A DNA stretch of 42,239 bases. Source: Candidatus Woesearchaeota archaeon (GTDB lineage Archaea > Nanobdellota > Nanobdellia > Woesearchaeales > WAPY01). Every line of letters starts with the position of its first letter. Position 1 is the first letter of the stretch. Position numbers: made by a program. Location of the stretch: NCBI GenBank assembly GCA_049700835.1, contig JBNAUL010000003.1:73775-116013 (forward strand). Direction: 5' to 3'. Below are positions 27,001 through 36,000 of this stretch, in pieces.

Positions 27001-30000
27001 TTTTCTTTTATAAATTTTGAAAAGATAATTGAACAGATAAGTGCTAATTTTCAAAAAGTTTTATTTTCATTAACCTCAAAGGTGCTAACAGCAATTCCAA
27101 ATCTTCTACTCCATTTGTTCATAGGACTTTTTGCCATGTTTTTCTTTTTTAAGGATGGAGAAGTAATGATTACTAAGTTCAAAGAAATTCTTGGTCTGCC
27201 AAAGCACCACCATGATTTTTTGAGCAAAGAAGTTTCTGATATGGTTTATTCAACAATCTATGGAAACATAATTGTTGCTTTAATACAATCAATCGCAGCA
27301 TTGATTGGTTACTTTATTTTCGGGGTTAAAACACCTGTTTTATTTGGAGTACTAACCTTTTTTGTTTCTGTTTTGCCTTATGTCGGAGCTCCCCTTGTTT
27401 GGTTTCCTATAAGCGCGCTGATGATTGTTGAAGGCTTGTTATTCAATTCTCCAAAGTTTTATAATGGAATAGGATTGATGCTTTGGGGCTTTTTTATTGT
27501 AAGCACGATAGACAACATAACAAAACCAAAAATTATTGGGGACAAGGCAAAGCTTCATCCTCTCTTGGTGCTTTTGGGAATAATAGGCGGAATAAGGGTT
27601 TTTGGATTCATAGGAATTATAATAGGACCTGTTGCCTGCGCTTTGGCTTCAGCAATAATAAAACTACAACTAAAACACGGTTTTGAACTATGGTTAAAAG
27701 AATAAAAAATTTTGGGGTGAATAGATGATTCTAAAAACAAGGTGTCTAAACATAAGAACAGGAGGCGCTTTGGTTTGCATACTAAACGAGAAGGATGCAG
27801 AAGCAATGAACATTTACAATGGAGACAGAGTTATTCTGAAGCATAGAAACAGGGAGGTTGTTGCAATAGCGGATGTTAGTTCAGAGATAATAAAGAAGGG
27901 AATGGTTGGTTTGTTTTATGAAACATTCAAGGAATTAGGAGTAAAGAACAATCAGAATATCTTTCTTTTGATAGCGCAGAAACCAGAATCAATAAATTAC
28001 ATAAAGGAAAAGCTTGATGGCAAAAAATTGGATTTTGACAAGATAAAGAGCATCATCAAGGATATAACAGAAAAAAAGCTTTCTGATACAGAGATAACTT
28101 ATTTCATAAGCGCATGTTATCCGAACAGACTTTCCAAAAAGGAGATAGTTTATTTAGCTCAATCAATGGTTGAGACAGGTGAAAGAATAAGTTTTAATTC
28201 AAAGTATGTCATGGATGTCCATTGCATTGGAGGAGTTCCTGGGAACAGGACAACTATGCTGATTGTTCCAATAATCGCTGCTTACGGCCTCAAGATTCCA
28301 AAGACCAGTTCAAGAGCAATAACCAGTCCTGCAGGCACAGCAGATACTATGGAAGTTTTATCAGATGTTGCTTTTGGCATAGAAAGAATAAAGAGAATTG
28401 TAGAGGAGGTTAATGGTTGCATTATTTGGGGCGGATCTGTTGCGCTTGCTCCTGCTGACGATAAAATAATAAAGATTGAAAAACTGTTGTCCATAGATTC
28501 AGAAGGGCAGATGACTGCAAGCATACTTGCAAAGAAAAAATCTGTTTCAGCAAACAATGTTTTGTTGGATATTCCTGTTGGTCCTGGATCAAAAGCAACG
28601 AACCTTAAACAGGCATATGGGCTAAAGAAGAAATTTGAATTCACTGCAAGTAATTTGGGAATAAATCTTAAAGTTGTTTTCAGCAATGGCTCTCAACCTA
28701 TAGGAAACGGCATAGGCCCTGCATTGGAAGCAAGGGATGTTCTTTGGTGTTTGGAAAAGGATGAGAGAGCTCCTAAGGACTTGATTTTAAAGTCCCTAAA
28801 GATGAGCGCGCTTATGATTATGATGGTCAAAAGAATGAGTTTCAACTATGCTTTTAGCATAGCAAAAAAATTGCTTGATTCAGGAGTTGCTCACAAAAAG
28901 ATGTTGGAGATTATTGAAGCGCAGAAACCTAAGATAAAGGAAAGCTCTAAAATAAAACTCGGAAATTTCAGCAAGGATGTTGTTGCAGAAAAATCAGGCA
29001 GGGTTGTTGGCATTGATAACATTTTGATTTCAAGAGTTGCAAGAGCAGCAGGTTCTCCTTCTGATGCGCGGGCAGGAATTTATCTTTACAAACATTTGAA
29101 GGATTTTGTCAGGGAAAAAGAACCTTTGTACACAATTTATGCAGAGAACAAGGAAAAGCTTGAATTTGCATTTTCAATAGCAGAGCAGAACAAAGGGATT
29201 TTGATAAAATAATTTAAAATAAAAGAAATCAGGGTTTTAATTTGTTTGCTGTTTATGATTTAAGATATAAAGTAAGAATGTTAAATTAAGAATGAGCAGA
29301 TTAGATGATTAGACTTAGATGATTAGACGTTACAATTAATGTAAAAAAAGATAAAAAACAAAAAATAAAATAAGATCATGCCTTTTCTATTTGATTTTTT
29401 ATTAATTTTTATATTTTTAAGAAAGATTTAAAAAGATTTGATTTCAGTTTTAATTTTAGGAGATAATAAACAGTTAATTTTAGTTTTTATTTTGTTTTGC
29501 CGGGGTCGCATAACCTGGTAGTGCGCCAGCCTTGAGAGCTGGTGCCCGCAAGGGCTTCAGGGTTCAAATCCCTGCCCCGGCGTTTCTACGATGCTTTTAC
29601 TACGCTTCTACTTGCTTCTACTTACTTTTATATTAATAATCTTTATAGTTTTCAAGACATCCTTAACAATTTGATCTATGCTTAATCTTTCTTCTTCTCT
29701 CATTATAAAATTTAAATCTGATTTTGTAGCAGGATTTCTTGGCACAGCAGAACAACCGCTTGTTTTTATTGTTGAAATTTCATAAGTTTCTATTTCCTTA
29801 GCAATCCTTATCGTTTCTTCTTTGTCATAAGTCAACAAAGGCCTTAAAACAAATAAATTTACAGCAGAATCAATTACCTTGAGGTTTGATTTTGTTTGAG
29901 AAGCAACTTGAGACAGGTTTTCCCCGCTCAGCAAGAAATCAGCATTTTCCATCAACGCGATTTTTTCAGCAACTCTGAACATGGTTCTCTTGCAAATCAA

Positions 30001-33000: not shown

Positions 33001-36000
33001 CACATTGGAAGGCATATTAAGCATATTAAAAAGAATTCAAAATATATACTGTATGCTTTGGGAATAATTGTTGCAGTTGCTCTTTTCTTATTTTTAAAAA
33101 ATTATTTTTCAGGAATGAAAACTGCTTACAAGTCAGAGGTTGACATCTATGTTATGAGCATGTGCCCATACGGGGCTCAGGCATTGAATGGCCTAATTCC
33201 CGCTGTGAAGGAACTCAACAGTAAAATAAGGGAAGTAAAATTGAATGTATATTTCATAGCGTCTGAACAAAATGGGGTTTTTTCAAGTTTGCATGGAGAA
33301 GAAGAAGTCAAAGAGGATTTAAGGCAGGTCTGCGTCATTAAATACTATCCTAAAAACTGGCAGGACTATGTTTACTGCATTGCCCAAAATTACTATGCTT
33401 CAAACAAAGCCCCTAAGGATGTTTGGCAGGAATGCGCTAAAAATAACAAGATTGATGTTAAGAAGATTGAAAAGTGTGCAAATTCAGAAGAGGGCAAAAA
33501 ACTTCTTTCTGAGAGCATTAAAAAATCAGAAGAAGCCCAAGCGCAAGGAAGCCCAACTATATACATCAATGGGAATTTATACTATGGAGGGAGAGATATA
33601 CTTTCCTTCAAGAGGGCTATATGCACCAATTCCAACAACTCGCTTTCAGAATGCGCAAATATTCCAAAGCCAAAAAGAACAAACATGATTGTGCTGAACG
33701 ATAATAGGTGCAAAGAGTGCGATGTCACGCAACTAGTTCAATCCCTGGAATCTCTCTTCTATAACCTCAATACAACATATTTGGATTACAGTTCTGAAGA
33801 AGGGAAAAAACTCTACAATGATTTGCAAGTGATTTATCTTCCTGCAATAATTTTTGACGATAGCGTGAAAGAAGGAGAAGGGTATTCAACAGTGCAAAGA
33901 TACTTGACAACATTGAATGACAACAAGCACTACCTTTTGAGGATAGGCGCAAGTTTTGACCCAACAAAGGAGATTTGTGACAACAAGATTGATGATGACA
34001 ACAACGGAATGATTGACTGCAAGGATCCTTACTGCAGCGAACAAATCATATGCAGGGAAGAGGTAAAGAACAAGATTGATTTGTTCGTCATGAGCATGTG
34101 CCCTTATGGCGTTACAGCAGAGAGGGCATTGAAGGATTTTCTGAATGTTGTTAAAGGAGTAAATGTAAGCATACATTTCATTGCTTCAGAAAATGCTGAC
34201 GGAACATTCTCAAGCTTGCACGGAGCAAAAGAGGTTGATGAGGACATAAGGCAGGTTTGCATAATGAAGTACTACCCTGCAAAATACTTTGACTACATGT
34301 GGTGCCAAGCAGACTATTATTTGTCTGGAAAGGACATATCAACAACATACCAAGATTGCCTACAGAGCAATTCGATGGACTTGCTTTTGATTAAAAAATG
34401 CGCAGAAGGAAAAGAAGGCAAGGAATTGTTAAGGGAAAACATGAAACTCACAGATGCGTTGGGAATAGGAGCATCTCCAACATGGCTTGTGAACAACAAG
34501 TATGAATTTTCAGGATTGGACGCTTCAACTATTCAGAAAAACTTTTGTGCTTACAACAATGTTTCAGGTTGCGAGAAACAGATAAATGGATCTGCAACGC
34601 AGACCACAACAGGCTCTTGTGGTTAATCTTAAGATTAATCTTGCGTTAAACTAAAATCTTTTTTATTTTTTAATAATTTTTTTTGTTCTTTAATTATTTG
34701 TTTAATATCTGTTAAATCTATTCAATTAAATTTATTAATGCAATCAATATTTCTTAATTCTATGTGTAACTCTATATGCAATTCCACATGTAATTCCATA
34801 ATAATCCGTTATGGAGAAATAGGAATTAAGGGAAAAAACAGAGGATTGTTTGAAAAACAGCTTTTAAGCAACATCAAAGAAATGCTTATTTATGATAAAA
34901 TAAGATTCAAAATGGTTTACAGAGCCCAAAATCGTGTTATCGTTGAGTTTGATGCAGAGAAAAAGAATGAGAAAGATAAAATAAATAATGAAATCTTAAA
35001 GTCATTGTGCTCTTTGAAGAAAATCTTTGGAATCATAAGTTTTAGCCCTGCTCTGAGAACATGTTTAGATTTGGATGAAATAAAAAGAAATGCACTCTTA
35101 TTTTACAATTTAAGGAATTGTGAGATAAACGAAGGGGAAAAAGATAAGAACAGAAAGAATGAGAGCACATTTAGGATTACAACCCAAAGGATAAACAAGA
35201 GTTTTCCGCTTAATTCCCAAAGAATAAATGAGGAAGTAGGGGCTTTTGTTGTTGAAAGAACTGGCGCGAAGGTTAATCTTAAAAAACCAGAAATAAACAT
35301 AGGAATAGAGATATTAGACAATGCCTATGTTTTTTTGGAAAGAATTAGAGGATTGGGAGGACTTCCTTTTTCCAAAAAAGATTTTTTTGCAATAGAACTG
35401 AAAAATAAAAATTCGTTAATAGCATCCCTTTGCATGATGAAAAGGGGATTAAAACCAATTTTTATCTTAAAAAATAAGAATTATGAGAAACGAAGAAATT
35501 TGCTTTTCCTCATCGCACCTTTTCTATCTGGAAAATTGAACATCGAAGCGATTGAAGGAGATTTTGATTATGAAAATAAAATCGTTGAGATTTTAAACTC
35601 AAAGAATGCTATTTTTGTTTCTGAAATTGCAGAAGTCAGCGAAAAAAATATTGAAGAACTGCAGAAATTAAAAAATTGTTATGGTAGTGTTTTAGCACCA
35701 TTGATTTTAATGGAAAAAGAGAAAAAGAACTACTATAAAAAACTCTTGATGAAAAAAAGGTAAAAGAATTTTTAATTTAAAATGAGTAGAAAGCAAAGAT
35801 TTGTTGAGGAAATAGAAAGGAAAGTTTTTAGAACAATCAAGGATTATAAACTCATTGACAAGAACGATCACGTTCTGATTGCTTTATCAGGAGGCAAAGA
35901 TTCAATGAGTTTGTTAGAAATCCTTAATGAAAAGTTCAATGTTGAAGCAATTTTCATTGATTTGGGAATTGAAGATTTTTCAAGCAATTCAAGAGAAAGA

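What a model noticed while it worked through the whole genome (the two positions that open the first line are those of the whole stretch)
29608..35763. tRNA 4-thiouridine synthase ThiI divided into a THUMP protein with a dead PP-loop domain and a separate active PP-loop p [...]
ThiI is encoded as two genes 4.5 kb apart on opposite strands. g00988 (C3:108536-109537,+, 333 aa) has the N-terminal ferredoxin-like and THUMP RNA-binding domains followed by a PP-loop-like domain whose ATP-binding signature is lost (ELKNKNSLIAS at the place where g00982 has LISGGIDSPVA). g00982 (C3:103382-104029,-, 215 aa) is a bare PP-loop pyrophosphatase domain with the intact SGGIDS motif and no RNA-binding domain. 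Since ThiI acts as a dimer in which one subunit's THUMP domain presents the tRNA to the other subunit's catalytic domain, the pair is read as an obligate heterodimer: one subunit kept for binding, the other for catalysis. The same two-gene form occurs in part of the order; ot [...]
Evidence so far: pfam.tsv: ThiI PP-loop domain E 2e-59 (hmm 5-196/197) on g00982; ThiI_fer + THUMP only (aa13-192) on g00988. Swiss-Prot: g00982 aligns to residues 166-390 of bacterial ThiI (34-38% id); g00988 to A. fulgidus ThiI 7-310 of 374 (30%). Motifs read in call 155. search_genomes with g00982 in 25 Woesearchaeales: 13 of 25 with a match; in 8 (G000 included) the open frame is 206-251 aa (stand-alone), in 4 it is 383-408 aa (single-chain ThiI), 1 is a 77-aa fragment at a contig end; 12 without match. 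search_genomes with g00988 in 5 of the stand-alone genomes: 4 of 5 have a separate 285-322 aa THUMP protein at another place (98 kb away in G011, other contigs in G012, G014, G015). predict_complex g00988 [...]
(Added by a program. Inside this text positions count along the whole contig: contig position 73,775 is position 1 of the stretch shown here. "Call 12" and the like, gene names such as g00115 and contig names such as C1 are that model's own, and its searches are not shown. The text may have been shortened before it was handed on; [...] marks where a part breaks off. The agent that wrote the report below was given it as the finding of a first reader that could run no searches.)

Follow-up and report, generated by a model that had tools for sequence, protein, structure and literature searches.

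The report
Two-gene archaeal tRNA 4-thiouridine synthase
This archaeon, like many others, appears to build its tRNA 4-thiouridine enzyme from two proteins, a tRNA-binding one with a dead catalytic domain and a small active one, which would also give a function to a crystallised protein (PH1313) that has none assigned.

Summary
Window 29608-30255(-) encodes a 215-aa bare ThiI/TtuI PP-loop domain with SGGIDS and three invariant Cys. Window 34762-35763(+) encodes a 333-aa NFLD-THUMP protein whose C-terminal domain has no PP-loop.

The heterodimer reading is well supported by computation but not shown.
- The genome (98.7% complete) holds one THUMP gene and one ThiI-type PP-loop gene.
- In 121 genomes of the order: 33 have both separate genes, 25 a single-chain ThiI, 4 the PP-loop piece only, 2 the THUMP piece only, 1 is ambiguous, 56 have neither.
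- In 101 genomes of a second phylum: 64 (+6 weak) have both, 14 are single-chain.
- One genome has the two genes overlapping on one strand.
- The complex model scores 0.85 against a best control of 0.14, which may reflect memory of ThiI homodimers.

g00988 belongs to the family of P. horikoshii PH1313 (PDB 1VBK), whose activity is unconfirmed.

The main rival is that the THUMP protein serves the TtuA/NcsA-like gene 18 nt downstream, a neighbourhood conserved in 12 of 20 loci. I class it as a new variant of a known kind.

The parts
29608..30255 (-). g00982: stand-alone ThiI/TtuI-type PP-loop ATP pyrophosphatase domain, 215 aa; proposed catalytic subunit
   Evidence: ORF. Pfam ThiI E 3.8e-58. 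Aligns to residues 189-385 of B. anthracis ThiI (E 5.5e-30) and 176-368 of T. maritima ThiI. An alignment of 32 stand-alone homologues has S8, G10-P14, C85, C88, C168 and Q116-T121 invariant.
30217..30234 (-). PP-loop motif SGGIDS (residues 8-13 of g00982), the ATP-binding signature
   Evidence: Read. S8, G10, I11, D12 and S13 are invariant in alignment A2.
29992..30003 (-). CxxC (C85, C88) of g00982. With C168 (29752-29754) it gives the three-Cys set typical of [4Fe-4S]-dependent archaeal TtuI.
   Evidence: C85, C88 and C168 are invariant in A2. The three-Cys class is described in PMC9825150 (introduction read). The match to M. maripaludis Cys265/268/348 is inferred from the motifs, not aligned here.
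34762..35763 (+). g00988: PH1313-type NFLD-THUMP protein with a degenerate PPase domain, 333 aa (alternative ATG at 34738); proposed tRNA-binding, non-catalytic subunit
   Evidence: ORF. Pfam ThiI_fer + THUMP only. Matches 1VBK PH1313 at E 7.2e-38 over residues 11-317. AF2 model pLDDT 88.4; Foldseek 1vbk_A E 1.1e-26, TM 0.75/0.81.
34792..35373 (+). NFLD + THUMP + linker (residues 11-204), the RNA-binding part
   Evidence: R16, Y17, E19, K23, F137, G160 and G200 are invariant across 26 short forms. By the printed alignment to 4KR6 these fall in the NFLD loop Arg10-Lys19 and the THUMP strand and helix that bind the acceptor stem and 3'-CCA in T. maritima ThiI.
35374..35760 (+). Truncated, catalytically dead PPase-like domain (residues 205-333); proposed dimerisation module
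   Evidence: It has no SGGxDS, no CxxC and no GQVASQT. It keeps MKRG (226-229) and LxPL (311-314). The predicted interface residues 207-230 and 282-321 lie here. Interface positions are more conserved than the rest of the domain.
35395..35427 (+). ELKNKNSLIAS (residues 212-222), the site where single-chain ThiI has LLSGGIDSPVA
   Evidence: Alignment column block; pairwise alignments to 2C5S and 4KR6.
35782..36687 (+). TtuA/NcsA-like PP-loop tRNA 2-thiolase, 301 aa, starting 18 nt after g00988. A conserved neighbour and the rival partner.
   Evidence: PF01171 E 2.3e-15. NF049949 (TtuA) 184.9 bits and NF047749 (NcsA) 125.8 bits, both under their cut-offs. Directly downstream on the same strand in 12 of 20 short-THUMP loci. 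Present in 103 of 121 genomes of the order.
36849..37583 (+). RNase P subunit p30, third gene of the conserved THUMP - TtuA-like - p30 row (context)
   Evidence: PF01876 E 3.7e-10. Found beside the THUMP or TtuA-like genes in 12 of 20 loci.
30597..32289 (-). SufBD-like (30597-31577) and SufC (31561-32289) Fe-S assembly genes upstream of g00982 on the same strand (context)
   Evidence: PF01458 E 3e-22 and PF00005 E 8.7e-24. The same sufC-sufBD-PP row occurs in two close relatives, L026/G053 and L064, and not in the other 19 PP loci examined.

Best explanation
The two genes encode the two subunits of a heterodimeric tRNA 4-thiouridine(8) synthase (ThiI/TtuI).

g00988 is a pseudoenzyme of the PH1313 type. 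Its NFLD and THUMP domains hold the acceptor stem and measure from the 3'-CCA end. Its shrunken PPase-like domain no longer binds ATP but still provides the PPase-PPase dimer surface.

g00982 is the bare catalytic PPase domain. It has a PP-loop for adenylating C4 of U8 and three Cys that most likely carry a [4Fe-4S] cluster delivering sulfide.

The pair would reproduce one half of the ThiI homodimer, in which the tRNA held by one subunit is modified in the active site of the other. That gives one tRNA site per heterodimer.

What is shown: domain content, motif loss and retention, phyletic coupling, and fold. What is inferred: physical binding, Fe-S content, s4U8 as the product, and sulfide as the donor.
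For: 1. Gene content. G000 (98.66% complete) has one THUMP match, g00988, and one strong ThiI PP-loop match, g00982. The only other PF02568 match is GMP synthase.

2. Phyletic coupling in the order, 121 genomes each of a different family:
- both genes separate: 33
- single-chain ThiI: 25
- PP piece only: 4 (one weak hit, probably another family)
- THUMP piece only: 2 (genomes 86% and 56% complete)
- ambiguous: 1
- neither: 56
No single-chain genome carries an extra piece. The three real PP-only genomes also lack or truncate the TtuA-like gene that normally sits beside the THUMP gene. This suggests an unassembled locus.

3. A second phylum, 101 genomes around a record titled 'uncultured Thermoplasmata archaeon':
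- both separate: 64, plus 6 with a weak or partial PP hit
- single-chain: 14
- PP only: 2
- THUMP only: 3
- neither: 12
All 20 of 20 sampled THUMP proteins there lack SxGxDS, across locus GC of 0.22-0.76.

4. Five of 5 further genomes with a short THUMP gene (records titled Nanoarchaeota, Micrarchaeota and others) have a PP match elsewhere in the genome.

5. In G088 the PP gene (4420-5049) and the THUMP gene (5027-5863) overlap by 23 nt on one strand. The order is the reverse of the domain order in ThiI, so this is not a broken single-chain gene.

6. Complex model: ipSAE 0.85 (three runs at 0.85, 0.85, 0.86) against a best control of 0.14. The mark was reached by 116 of 157 solved complexes and 2 of 215 mismatched pairs. 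Runs agree in at least 89% of contacts and partner pLDDT is at least 85.

7. Interface geometry. The interface joins the dead domain of g00988 to the PPase domain of g00982. It includes G200 of g00988 and D144 of g00982. By the printed alignments these are the equivalents of Gly168 and Asp319, which make an inter-subunit hydrogen bond in T. maritima ThiI.

8. Conservation. The only three invariant positions of the dead domain (R228, G229, P313) lie in the predicted interface. Interface positions are more conserved than the rest of the domain: top-residue fraction 0.50 against 0.35, one-sided Mann-Whitney p 0.003.

9. RNA-binding positions of NFLD and THUMP are invariant among 26 short forms.

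10. All 29 tRNAs found by ARAGORN have T at position 8. In 12 of them it is position 9 of a call that seems to start one base early.

11. Published mechanism. In ThiI the dimer interface is mainly PPase-PPase, and each RNA is bound by NFLD/THUMP of one subunit and modified by the other (PMC4041423, abstract and sections 16 and 19 read).
Against: No experiment bears on binding or activity.

The complex model may pass from memory of ThiI and PH1313 homodimers (2C5S, 4KR6, 1VBK). I could not run homodimer or TtuA-like comparators because the cap is one job.

The model used my own alignments, so the conserved-interface test is not independent of it.

The two genes are rarely adjacent. The PP gene lies within the roughly 6 kb examined on each side of the THUMP gene in 2 of 20 loci (L004, L017). 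The THUMP gene sits directly upstream of a TtuA/NcsA-like gene in 12 of 20.

Kin are not independent, so the phyletic tables overstate the number of independent events.

P. furiosus has an active single-chain TtuI (PMC9825150) and Pyrococcus is said to carry several ThiI homologues (PMC9957541). In that genus a PH1313-type protein may therefore coexist with a complete enzyme, a pattern I did not see in my 222 sampled genomes and could not examine.
Confidence: 0.68

Rival explanations
1. The PH1313-type THUMP protein is a tRNA-binding adaptor for the adjacent TtuA/NcsA-like 2-thiolase, alone or in addition to g00982. This would resemble Tan1/THUMPD1 serving an acetyltransferase.
For: g00988 is followed after 18 nt by the TtuA/NcsA-like gene.

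The row THUMP - TtuA-like, usually followed by RNase P p30, recurs in 12 of 20 short-THUMP loci from different families of the order and in L064. It recurs in only 2 of 20 single-chain thiI loci.

THUMP proteins that are mere partners of another enzyme are an accepted class (passage in PMC12255305).

From my own knowledge, THUMP-containing Pus10 acts at positions 54/55. A THUMP ruler is therefore not limited to positions 6-10.
Against: The TtuA-like gene is found in 103 of 121 genomes, including most of the 56 with no ThiI-like gene at all. It therefore works without this protein.

The short THUMP gene persists in 3 two-gene genomes with no TtuA-like match: G041, G051 and G095. In L007 (G051) it abuts RNase P p30 directly.

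The same thiI - ttuA-like - p30 row exists with a single-chain ThiI (L044), one of the single-chain proteins best matched by g00988. The synteny can therefore be inherited rather than functional.

The THUMP protein tracks the stand-alone PP gene, not the TtuA-like gene.
Confidence: 0.12
2. The two proteins act independently. g00982 would thiolate tRNA or another substrate without a THUMP partner, perhaps as a homodimer. g00988 would be an RNA-binding protein with another role, perhaps as a homodimer like crystalline PH1313.
For: PH1313 was solved as a dimer of itself (figure legend in PMC9957541) and has no confirmed activity.

A few genomes show one piece only: 4 with the PP piece and 2 with the THUMP piece of 121, and 2 and 3 of 101.

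One stand-alone PP protein (G032) groups with single-chain ThiI rather than with the stand-alone clade.
Against: The two pieces occur together, and both are missing wherever a single-chain ThiI is present, in two phyla.

A bare PPase domain lacks the NFLD/THUMP surface that binds the RNA in the solved complex.

Most one-piece genomes are incomplete or lack the neighbouring locus.
Confidence: 0.12
3. The pair is a decaying remnant: s4U8 synthesis is being lost and the dead domain is drift.
For: 56 of 121 genomes of the order have no ThiI at all, so loss is common.
Against: The short form is a large family kept across two phyla and a wide GC range. The profile search found 2394 representatives at E 1e-30 or better (short and single-chain forms together). 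The best 150, all at E 6e-73 or better, are nearly all 250-310 aa. It has invariant RNA-binding and interface residues.

No stops or frameshifts are seen in either gene here.
Confidence: 0.02

Closest known systems
Single-chain ThiI/TtuI (tRNA uracil 4-sulfurtransferase), especially the [4Fe-4S] class of M. maripaludis and P. furiosus
   Same: The same three domains, NFLD, THUMP and PP-loop PPase. g00982 has the same PP-loop and three-Cys signature. The expected product is the same (s4U8), as is the expected cross-subunit geometry of the dimer (PMC4041423; PMC9825150).
   Different: The domains lie on two polypeptides from separate genes. The THUMP chain carries a truncated PPase domain without ATP-binding or catalytic residues. 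The dimer would therefore be asymmetric, with one tRNA site instead of two. PMC9825150 states that 'all TtuI enzymes' have the three domains in one chain.
PH1313 of Pyrococcus horikoshii (PDB 1VBK), a 'ThiI-like protein' of unknown activity
   Same: g00988 aligns to it end to end (E 7.2e-38, residues 11-317 against 2-293). It shares the missing PP-loop (LHDELSALA at that site) and the short C-terminal domain. It is the best structural match, TM 0.75/0.81.
   Different: Identity is about 30%. g00988 has Lys/Asn-rich insertions. Whether Pyrococcus has a stand-alone PP-loop partner was not testable here, and that genus also has a single-chain TtuI.
NCBIfam NF006222 (PRK08349), a 198-position 'hypothetical protein' subfamily of bare ThiI-like PP-loop domains
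   Same: g00982 matches positions 1-187 of 198 at E 5.9e-51. The architecture is the same: a PP-loop domain alone.
   Different: The score of 173 bits is below the 251-bit cut-off, so g00982 is a relative and not a member.
Active/inactive paralogue pairs in tRNA modification: Ncs6/Ncs2 (Ctu1/Ctu2), ADAT2/ADAT3, Trm61/Trm6, QTRT1/QTRT2
   Same: A catalytic subunit is paired with a degenerate paralogue that contributes tRNA binding or scaffolding. The pairs derive from an ancestral homo-oligomer. The Ncs6-Ncs2 heterocomplex is mentioned in PMC8584467 (passage read); the other pairs are from my own knowledge.
   Different: Those pairs are eukaryotic. Here the catalytic subunit has also lost its own RNA-binding domains, so the division of labour is complete. 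The lineage is archaeal.
Tan1/THUMPD1, the THUMP-only partner of the acetyltransferase Kre33/NAT10
   Same: A THUMP protein without catalytic activity that presents tRNA to a separate enzyme (class listed in PMC12255305).
   Different: Tan1 has no remnant of its partner's catalytic fold. Here docking would go through a pseudo-homodimeric PPase-PPase surface.

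Membership tests
ThiI/TtuI (TIGR00342 equivalog domain) | NFLD, THUMP and PP-loop PPase in one chain, scoring over the curated cut-off of 264.5 bits | tested here: not met
   g00988 scores 134.3 bits on profile positions 1-204. g00982 scores 194 bits on positions 174-368. Neither reaches the cut-off; together they cover the profile.
ThiI/TtuI | PP-loop ATP-binding motif SGGxDS | tested here: met
   Met in g00982 (SGGIDS; invariant S8, G10-S13 in 32 homologues). Not met in g00988 (ELKNKNS), nor in any of 21 + 20 short forms.
ThiI/TtuI, [4Fe-4S] class | Three conserved Cys in the catalytic domain (CxxC plus a third Cys) | tested here: met
   C85, C88 and C168 of g00982 are invariant in A2. 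17 of 23 stand-alone proteins of the order have CxxC. Cluster binding itself is not testable here.
ThiI/TtuI | Dimer in which NFLD/THUMP of one subunit presents tRNA to the PPase site of the other | tested here: inconclusive
   The heterodimer model scores 0.85 against a best control of 0.14, with a PPase-PPase interface. It may reflect memory of solved homodimers. No tRNA was modelled.
ThiI/TtuI | Formation of s4U8 in tRNA with ATP and a sulfur donor | not testable with these tools
   Only the substrate feature could be checked: T at position 8 in 29 of 29 tRNAs.
PH1313-type ThiI-like proteins (PDB 1VBK) | Full-length similarity to PH1313 in sequence and fold: NFLD-THUMP plus a shortened PPase-like domain | tested here: met
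   phmmer E 7.2e-38 over residues 11-317. Foldseek E 1.1e-26, TM 0.75/0.81, ahead of ThiI structures at TM 0.62-0.66.
PH1313-type ThiI-like proteins | Absence of conserved ThiI catalytic residues | tested here: met
   No SGGxDS, CxxC or GQVASQT in g00988. PH1313 shows LHDELS at the PP-loop site in the printed alignment. [quoted passage not shown]
NF006222 / PRK08349 stand-alone PP-loop subfamily | Score over the curated cut-off of 251 bits | tested here: not met
   173.2 bits.
TtuA / NcsA (the neighbour at 35782-36687) | Score over the equivalog cut-offs (450 and 500 bits) | tested here: not met
   184.9 and 125.8 bits. The PP-loop family PF01171 is met at 57.2 bits against a cut-off of 27. 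It is a family-level relative, and the modified position is unassigned.

The most novel reading that the evidence does not exclude
A heterodimeric TtuI is a major, so far unrecognised form of the s4U8 synthase in Archaea. It consists of a PH1313-type pseudoenzyme that binds tRNA and a bare [4Fe-4S] PP-loop subunit that does the chemistry. It is the commonest form in at least one phylum besides the window's own.

If so, it assigns a function to PH1313, a structure deposited in 2005 with no confirmed activity. It also shows that the active-plus-dead-paralogue design known from eukaryotic tRNA enzymes arose independently in archaea.

A bolder corollary is that the THUMP subunit's catalytic domain may have decayed more than once, after a free catalytic subunit became available. 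The free NFLD-THUMP tree needs at least 4 changes of state. A single origin is not rejected, AU p 0.158.
Probability: 0.6. Interest if true: 0.72.

Novelty: new variant of a known kind. Interest (0 to 1): 0.62.

Why it matters
The reviews and primary papers I could read describe s4U8 synthases as single chains with three domains (PMC9825150 introduction). They leave PH1313 as a 'ThiI-like protein' whose activity 'has not been confirmed' (PMC9957541 section 4.1).

If the two-gene enzyme is real, three things follow:
- Annotation of 'THUMP domain-containing protein' and of '7-cyano-7-deazaguanine synthase' or 'hypothetical protein' in thousands of archaeal genomes can be corrected.
- Presence of s4U8 can be predicted in lineages that seem to lack thiI.
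- PH1313 gets a testable role.

It would also give a clean natural experiment on how a homodimeric enzyme turns into an asymmetric heterodimer with one dead subunit. The test is ordinary: co-expression, anaerobic cluster reconstitution and an s4U assay.

Tried and rejected
**Reaching Thermococcales genomes (to ask whether PH1313 has a stand-alone partner)**
- The 8-row alignment A3 ran, but its pattern [IV]RYGEIG[IL]K does not fit PH1313. The best 80 loci were mostly bacterial single-chain ThiI, and no Thermococcales record was returned.
- That used the only genome-contig scan, so the question stays open.

I obtained genome handles first.
- The look-up of sequencing runs, kind rna: no RNA holder listed.

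**Papers not held**
- PMC3481272 (Liu 2012, cited for 'multiple ThiI homologs in Pyrococcus') and PMC2330111 (the PH1313 crystallisation note) are not held. What they say about PH1313 partners is unseen.
- The supplements of PMC9825150 (Figure S1 alignment) were not opened.

**Analyses that did not resolve**
- The NFLD-THUMP tree is poorly resolved, with 21 of 52 inner branches open. I draw no origin story from it beyond the AU result.
- The second weak PF02568 hit in the genome was considered as another possible partner and rejected. It is GMP synthase.
- I considered that the G088 pair might be a frameshifted single gene and rejected it. The order is PP then THUMP, and the THUMP protein has its own dead domain.

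**Literature searches for a described split ThiI/TtuI**
- Terms used: PH1313; ThiI+THUMP+PP-loop+archaea (8); 4-thiouridine+DPANN (35, no papers); ThiI/split/heterodimer/THUMP (36); kodakarensis/ThiI/s4U8 (61); TK0366 (64); TtuI (86); THUMP/PP-loop/inactive/paralog (87).
- None of the listed titles or abstracts, nor the passages I read, describes a two-gene form.
- The library lacks most subscription journals, so this is 'not found in these searches', not 'not in print'.

Full report
**Observation**

- g00982 is 29608-30255 on the minus strand, 215 aa.
- g00988 is 34762-35763 on the plus strand, 333 aa. An in-frame ATG at 34738 would give 341 aa.

Pfam finds the ThiI PP-loop domain in g00982 (E 3.8e-58, profile positions 5-196 of 197). 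In g00988 it finds only ThiI_fer and THUMP. The NCBIfam ThiI model TIGR00342 is covered in complementary halves by the two proteins. Neither reaches its cut-off.

g00982 starts directly with MKALSLISGGIDS and carries CLIC and SGCSAV. At the corresponding place g00988 has ELKNKNSLIAS.

The motif loss is a family trait. In 120 homologues of g00988, all proteins of about 220-343 aa lack SGGxDS, except one 220-aa row that keeps SGGFDS and ends inside the domain. All proteins of 359 aa or more keep an S-x-G-x-DS motif.

**What each protein is**

The best solved relative of g00988 is not a ThiI. It is PH1313 of Pyrococcus horikoshii (1VBK), at E 7.2e-38 and aligned over residues 11-317. B. anthracis and T. 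maritima ThiI match only the N-terminal 230 residues. PH1313 also lacks the PP-loop in that alignment.

An AlphaFold2 model of g00988 (pLDDT 88.4, pTM 0.83) matches 1vbk_A best: E 1.1e-26, TM 0.75/0.81. The ThiI structures follow at TM 0.62-0.66.

[quoted passage not shown] It says its 'enzymatic activity ... has not been confirmed' (PMC9957541, section 4.1 read).

A profile of 26 short forms finds 7682 representatives at E 0.001 or better and 2394 at 1e-30 or better among 1.84 billion. These counts include single-chain ThiI. The best 150 are almost all 250-310 aa and match end to end. Named members include Thermoplasmatota 'THUMP domain-containing proteins'.

g00982 belongs to an equally large set of proteins of about 200-215 aa that are nothing but the ThiI PPase domain. 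There are 6933 hits at E 1e-10 or better within the length band searched. Sources name them from Woesearchaeota, Nanoarchaeota, Altiarchaeales, Hydrothermarchaeota, Thermoplasmatales and Methanomassiliicoccales, often mislabelled as QueC. It resembles NCBIfam NF006222/PRK08349 but scores under that model's cut-off.

In 32 such proteins the PP-loop, C85, C88, C168 and GQVASQT are invariant. This is the three-Cys signature of the [4Fe-4S] class of archaeal TtuI (PMC9825150, introduction read).

**Genome content**

G000 is 1.07 Mb in 4 contigs and 98.66% complete. It has one THUMP match (g00988) and one strong ThiI PP-loop match (g00982). The only other PF02568 match is GMP synthase.

All 29 tRNAs found by ARAGORN have T at position 8. 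In 12 of them it is at position 9 of a call that seems to begin one base early, as Rfam's coordinates show for two tRNAs in the window.

**Distribution**

I searched 121 genomes of the window's order, each from a different family, with both proteins. I re-searched five doubtful genomes with the profile. Cross-tabulating the printed places by hand gives:

| Pattern | Genomes |
|---|---|
| Both genes, at separate places | 33 (including G000 and the unpublished G112) |
| Single-chain ThiI (both queries hit one frame) | 25 |
| PP piece only | 4 (G053, G002, G044; G039 is a weak hit, probably another family) |
| THUMP piece only | 2 (G071, G111; 86% and 56% complete; no PP-loop match over the cut-off) |
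| Ambiguous | 1 (G024) |
| Neither | 56 |

No single-chain genome has an extra piece. The three real PP-only genomes also lack, or have only a contig-end fragment of, the TtuA-like gene that normally lies next to the THUMP gene. An unassembled locus is the likeliest reason.

Five more genomes with a short THUMP gene, reached through named records (Nanoarchaeota, Micrarchaeota and others), all have a PP match elsewhere in the genome (5 of 5).

I then sampled 101 genomes of the phylum of a record titled 'uncultured Thermoplasmata archaeon':

| Pattern | Genomes |
|---|---|
| Both, at separate places | 64, plus 6 whose PP hit is weak or partial |
| Single-chain | 14 |
| PP piece only | 2 |
| THUMP piece only | 3 |
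| Neither | 12 |

Twenty of 20 THUMP proteins fetched from that set lack SxGxDS, at locus GC contents from 0.22 to 0.76. The two-gene form is therefore the commonest form there.

Kin are not independent, so these tables show a consistent pattern, not a count of events.

**Neighbourhoods**

The two genes are seldom neighbours. In 20 short-THUMP loci, the PP gene lies within the roughly 6 kb examined on each side in only two. In G092 it is 2.2 kb away.

In G088 the PP gene (4420-5049) and the THUMP gene (5027-5863) overlap by 23 nt on one strand. The order there is PP then THUMP, and the THUMP protein has its own dead domain. This is therefore an operon of two genes, not a broken thiI.

The THUMP gene is followed on the same strand by a TtuA/NcsA-like PP-loop gene in 12 of 20 loci, as in the window (18 nt gap). 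RNase P p30 lies beside the THUMP or TtuA-like genes in 12 of 20. Of 20 single-chain thiI loci, only 2 have the TtuA-like neighbour. One of these, L044 (G085), shows the same row, and G085 is among the single-chain genomes best matched by g00988.

The TtuA-like gene is present in 103 of 121 genomes, including most that have no ThiI-like gene. It is absent from three two-gene genomes: G041, G051 and G095.

g00982 lies downstream of sufC and sufBD on the same strand. This row is shared only with two close relatives.

**Complex and conservation**

The complex model of g00988 with g00982, each given as an alignment, scored ipSAE 0.85 in three runs (0.85, 0.85, 0.86). The best of three controls scored 0.14. 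The mark was reached by 116 of 157 solved complexes and 2 of 215 mismatched pairs. The runs agree in at least 89% of contacts, and the partner's pLDDT is at least 85. Because ThiI and PH1313 homodimers are solved, the pass may come from memory.

The interface joins residues 200-230 and 282-321 of g00988 (the linker and the dead domain, including MKRG and LxPL) to residues 19-25 and 106-151 of g00982.

Counting along the printed alignments to 4KR6, G200 of g00988 and D144 of g00982 correspond to Gly168 and Asp319. Both are in the interface lists. Gly168 and Asp319 form an inter-subunit hydrogen bond in T. maritima ThiI (PMC4041423 section 16).

Within the dead domain the only invariant positions (R228, G229, P313) are interface positions. 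Interface positions are more conserved than the rest: top-residue fraction 0.50 against 0.35, one-sided Mann-Whitney p 0.003; by entropy, p 0.031. This test is not independent of the model, which saw the same alignment.

Invariant positions of the N-terminal half (R16, Y17, E19, K23, F137, G160) fall in the NFLD loop and the THUMP strand and helix. These bind the acceptor stem and 3'-CCA in the solved complex.

**Phylogeny**

In a tree of PPase domains, 22 of 23 stand-alone proteins of the order sit on one side of a well-supported branch (97/94), together with 6 of 6 stand-alone proteins from other archaea. All single-chain and bacterial sequences sit on the other side. The exception is G032.

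CxxC is present in 17 of 23 stand-alone proteins but only 4 of 20 single-chain proteins of the order.

The NFLD-THUMP tree is poorly resolved. The free tree needs at least 4 changes between short and single-chain forms. An AU test does not reject a single clade of short forms, p 0.158. I leave the number of origins open.

**Mechanism proposed**

By analogy with the ThiI homodimer, the dimer interface is mainly PPase-PPase. Each RNA is held by NFLD/THUMP of one subunit and modified in the other (PMC4041423, abstract and sections 16 and 19).

g00988 would dock on g00982 through its degenerate PPase domain. It would bind the acceptor stem and the CCA end and place U8 in the active site of g00982. 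There C4 would be adenylated, and a cluster-bound sulfide would displace AMP (chemistry as proposed in PMC9825150).

Binding, cluster, product and sulfur donor are all inferences.

**Rivals**

1. The THUMP protein serves the adjacent TtuA/NcsA-like enzyme. This is supported only by conserved adjacency. It is weakened by the phyletic data above and by the same synteny occurring with a single-chain ThiI.
2. The two proteins act independently. This is contradicted by their coupled presence and their joint absence where a single-chain enzyme exists.
3. Decay. This is contradicted by conservation across two phyla.

**Comparison and novelty**

Both protein families are catalogued, and one has a crystal structure. 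In eight literature searches and in the passages read, I found no description of a two-gene ThiI/TtuI. A 2022 primary paper states that all TtuI enzymes contain the three domains in one chain.

The design resembles eukaryotic active/inactive paralogue pairs and the Tan1-type THUMP adaptor. I class it as a new variant of a known kind.

**Limits**

- There is no experiment.
- There are no comparator complex models.
- Thermococcales genomes could not be reached, so PH1313's own partner is untested.
- Two relevant papers and the supplements of PMC9825150 were not seen.
- The count of 33 includes one unpublished genome, G112. Without it the figure is 32 of 120.

Noticed in passing
window 22634-22776 (-) and 26486-26590 (+): Rfam finds two tRNAs of 143 and 105 nt that ARAGORN does not report. 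They are probably intron-containing archaeal tRNA genes. The genome-wide ARAGORN count of 29 tRNAs is therefore an undercount.
   Followed up: no
window 29498-29583 (+): tRNA-Ser(tga) lies 25 nt from the 3' end of g00982, convergent with it.
   Followed up: no
window 30256-30596: A 341-nt gap separates sufBD from g00982. In the two close relatives, by the tblastn alignment ends, the PP gene follows sufBD within about 20 nt (L026, L064). The only ORF in the gap is a low-complexity hydrophobic one.
   Followed up: no
window 32311-32664 (-): A 117-aa protein with a weak Cro-like HTH (E 0.0069) and a Cys-rich C-terminal half sits upstream of sufC. Relatives lie within about 2-5.5 kb of the short THUMP gene in 5 of 20 loci: L006, L010, L013, L017, L023. 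It may be an Fe-S or redox-sensing regulator.
   Followed up: partly
window 32878-34626 (+): A 582-aa protein with a Lys-rich N-terminus, a hydrophobic segment and two GILT/DsbA-like thioredoxin-fold modules. A relative lies next to the single-chain thiI of G085 (L044).
   Followed up: no
window 39831-42239 (+), runs off the window end: An open frame of more than 803 aa in a stretch with extreme skews (GC skew 0.65, AT skew -0.45 in 40001-42000). Its only Pfam match is a MopE-like metal-binding motif.
   Followed up: partly
L032, L037, L039, L040, L043 (stand-alone PP genes of G093, G095, G116, G058, G034): A well-supported subclade (100/99) of stand-alone PP-loop proteins has lost the CxxC motif. 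Their sulfur chemistry may differ from the [4Fe-4S] type while they still pair with a short THUMP protein.
   Followed up: partly
L042 and L023 (G032): The stand-alone PP-loop protein of G032 groups with single-chain ThiI (next to L054_F) rather than with the stand-alone clade. The genome nevertheless has a typical short THUMP gene followed by the TtuA-like gene and p30. This may be an independent origin or a replacement of the catalytic subunit.
   Followed up: no
window 34762-34800 (+): g00988 begins with a thrice-repeated Cys-Asn-Ser (MCNSICNSTCNS). The segment is poorly modelled (residues 1-6 have pLDDT under 50), and among the aligned relatives only P0002 keeps a single CNS.
   Followed up: no
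G000 contig C1:18137-18586: The only Aminotran_5 (cysteine desulfurase family) match in the genome is weak: 30.4 bits, E 7e-8. This would fit sulfide, rather than a persulfide relay, as the sulfur source.
   Followed up: no
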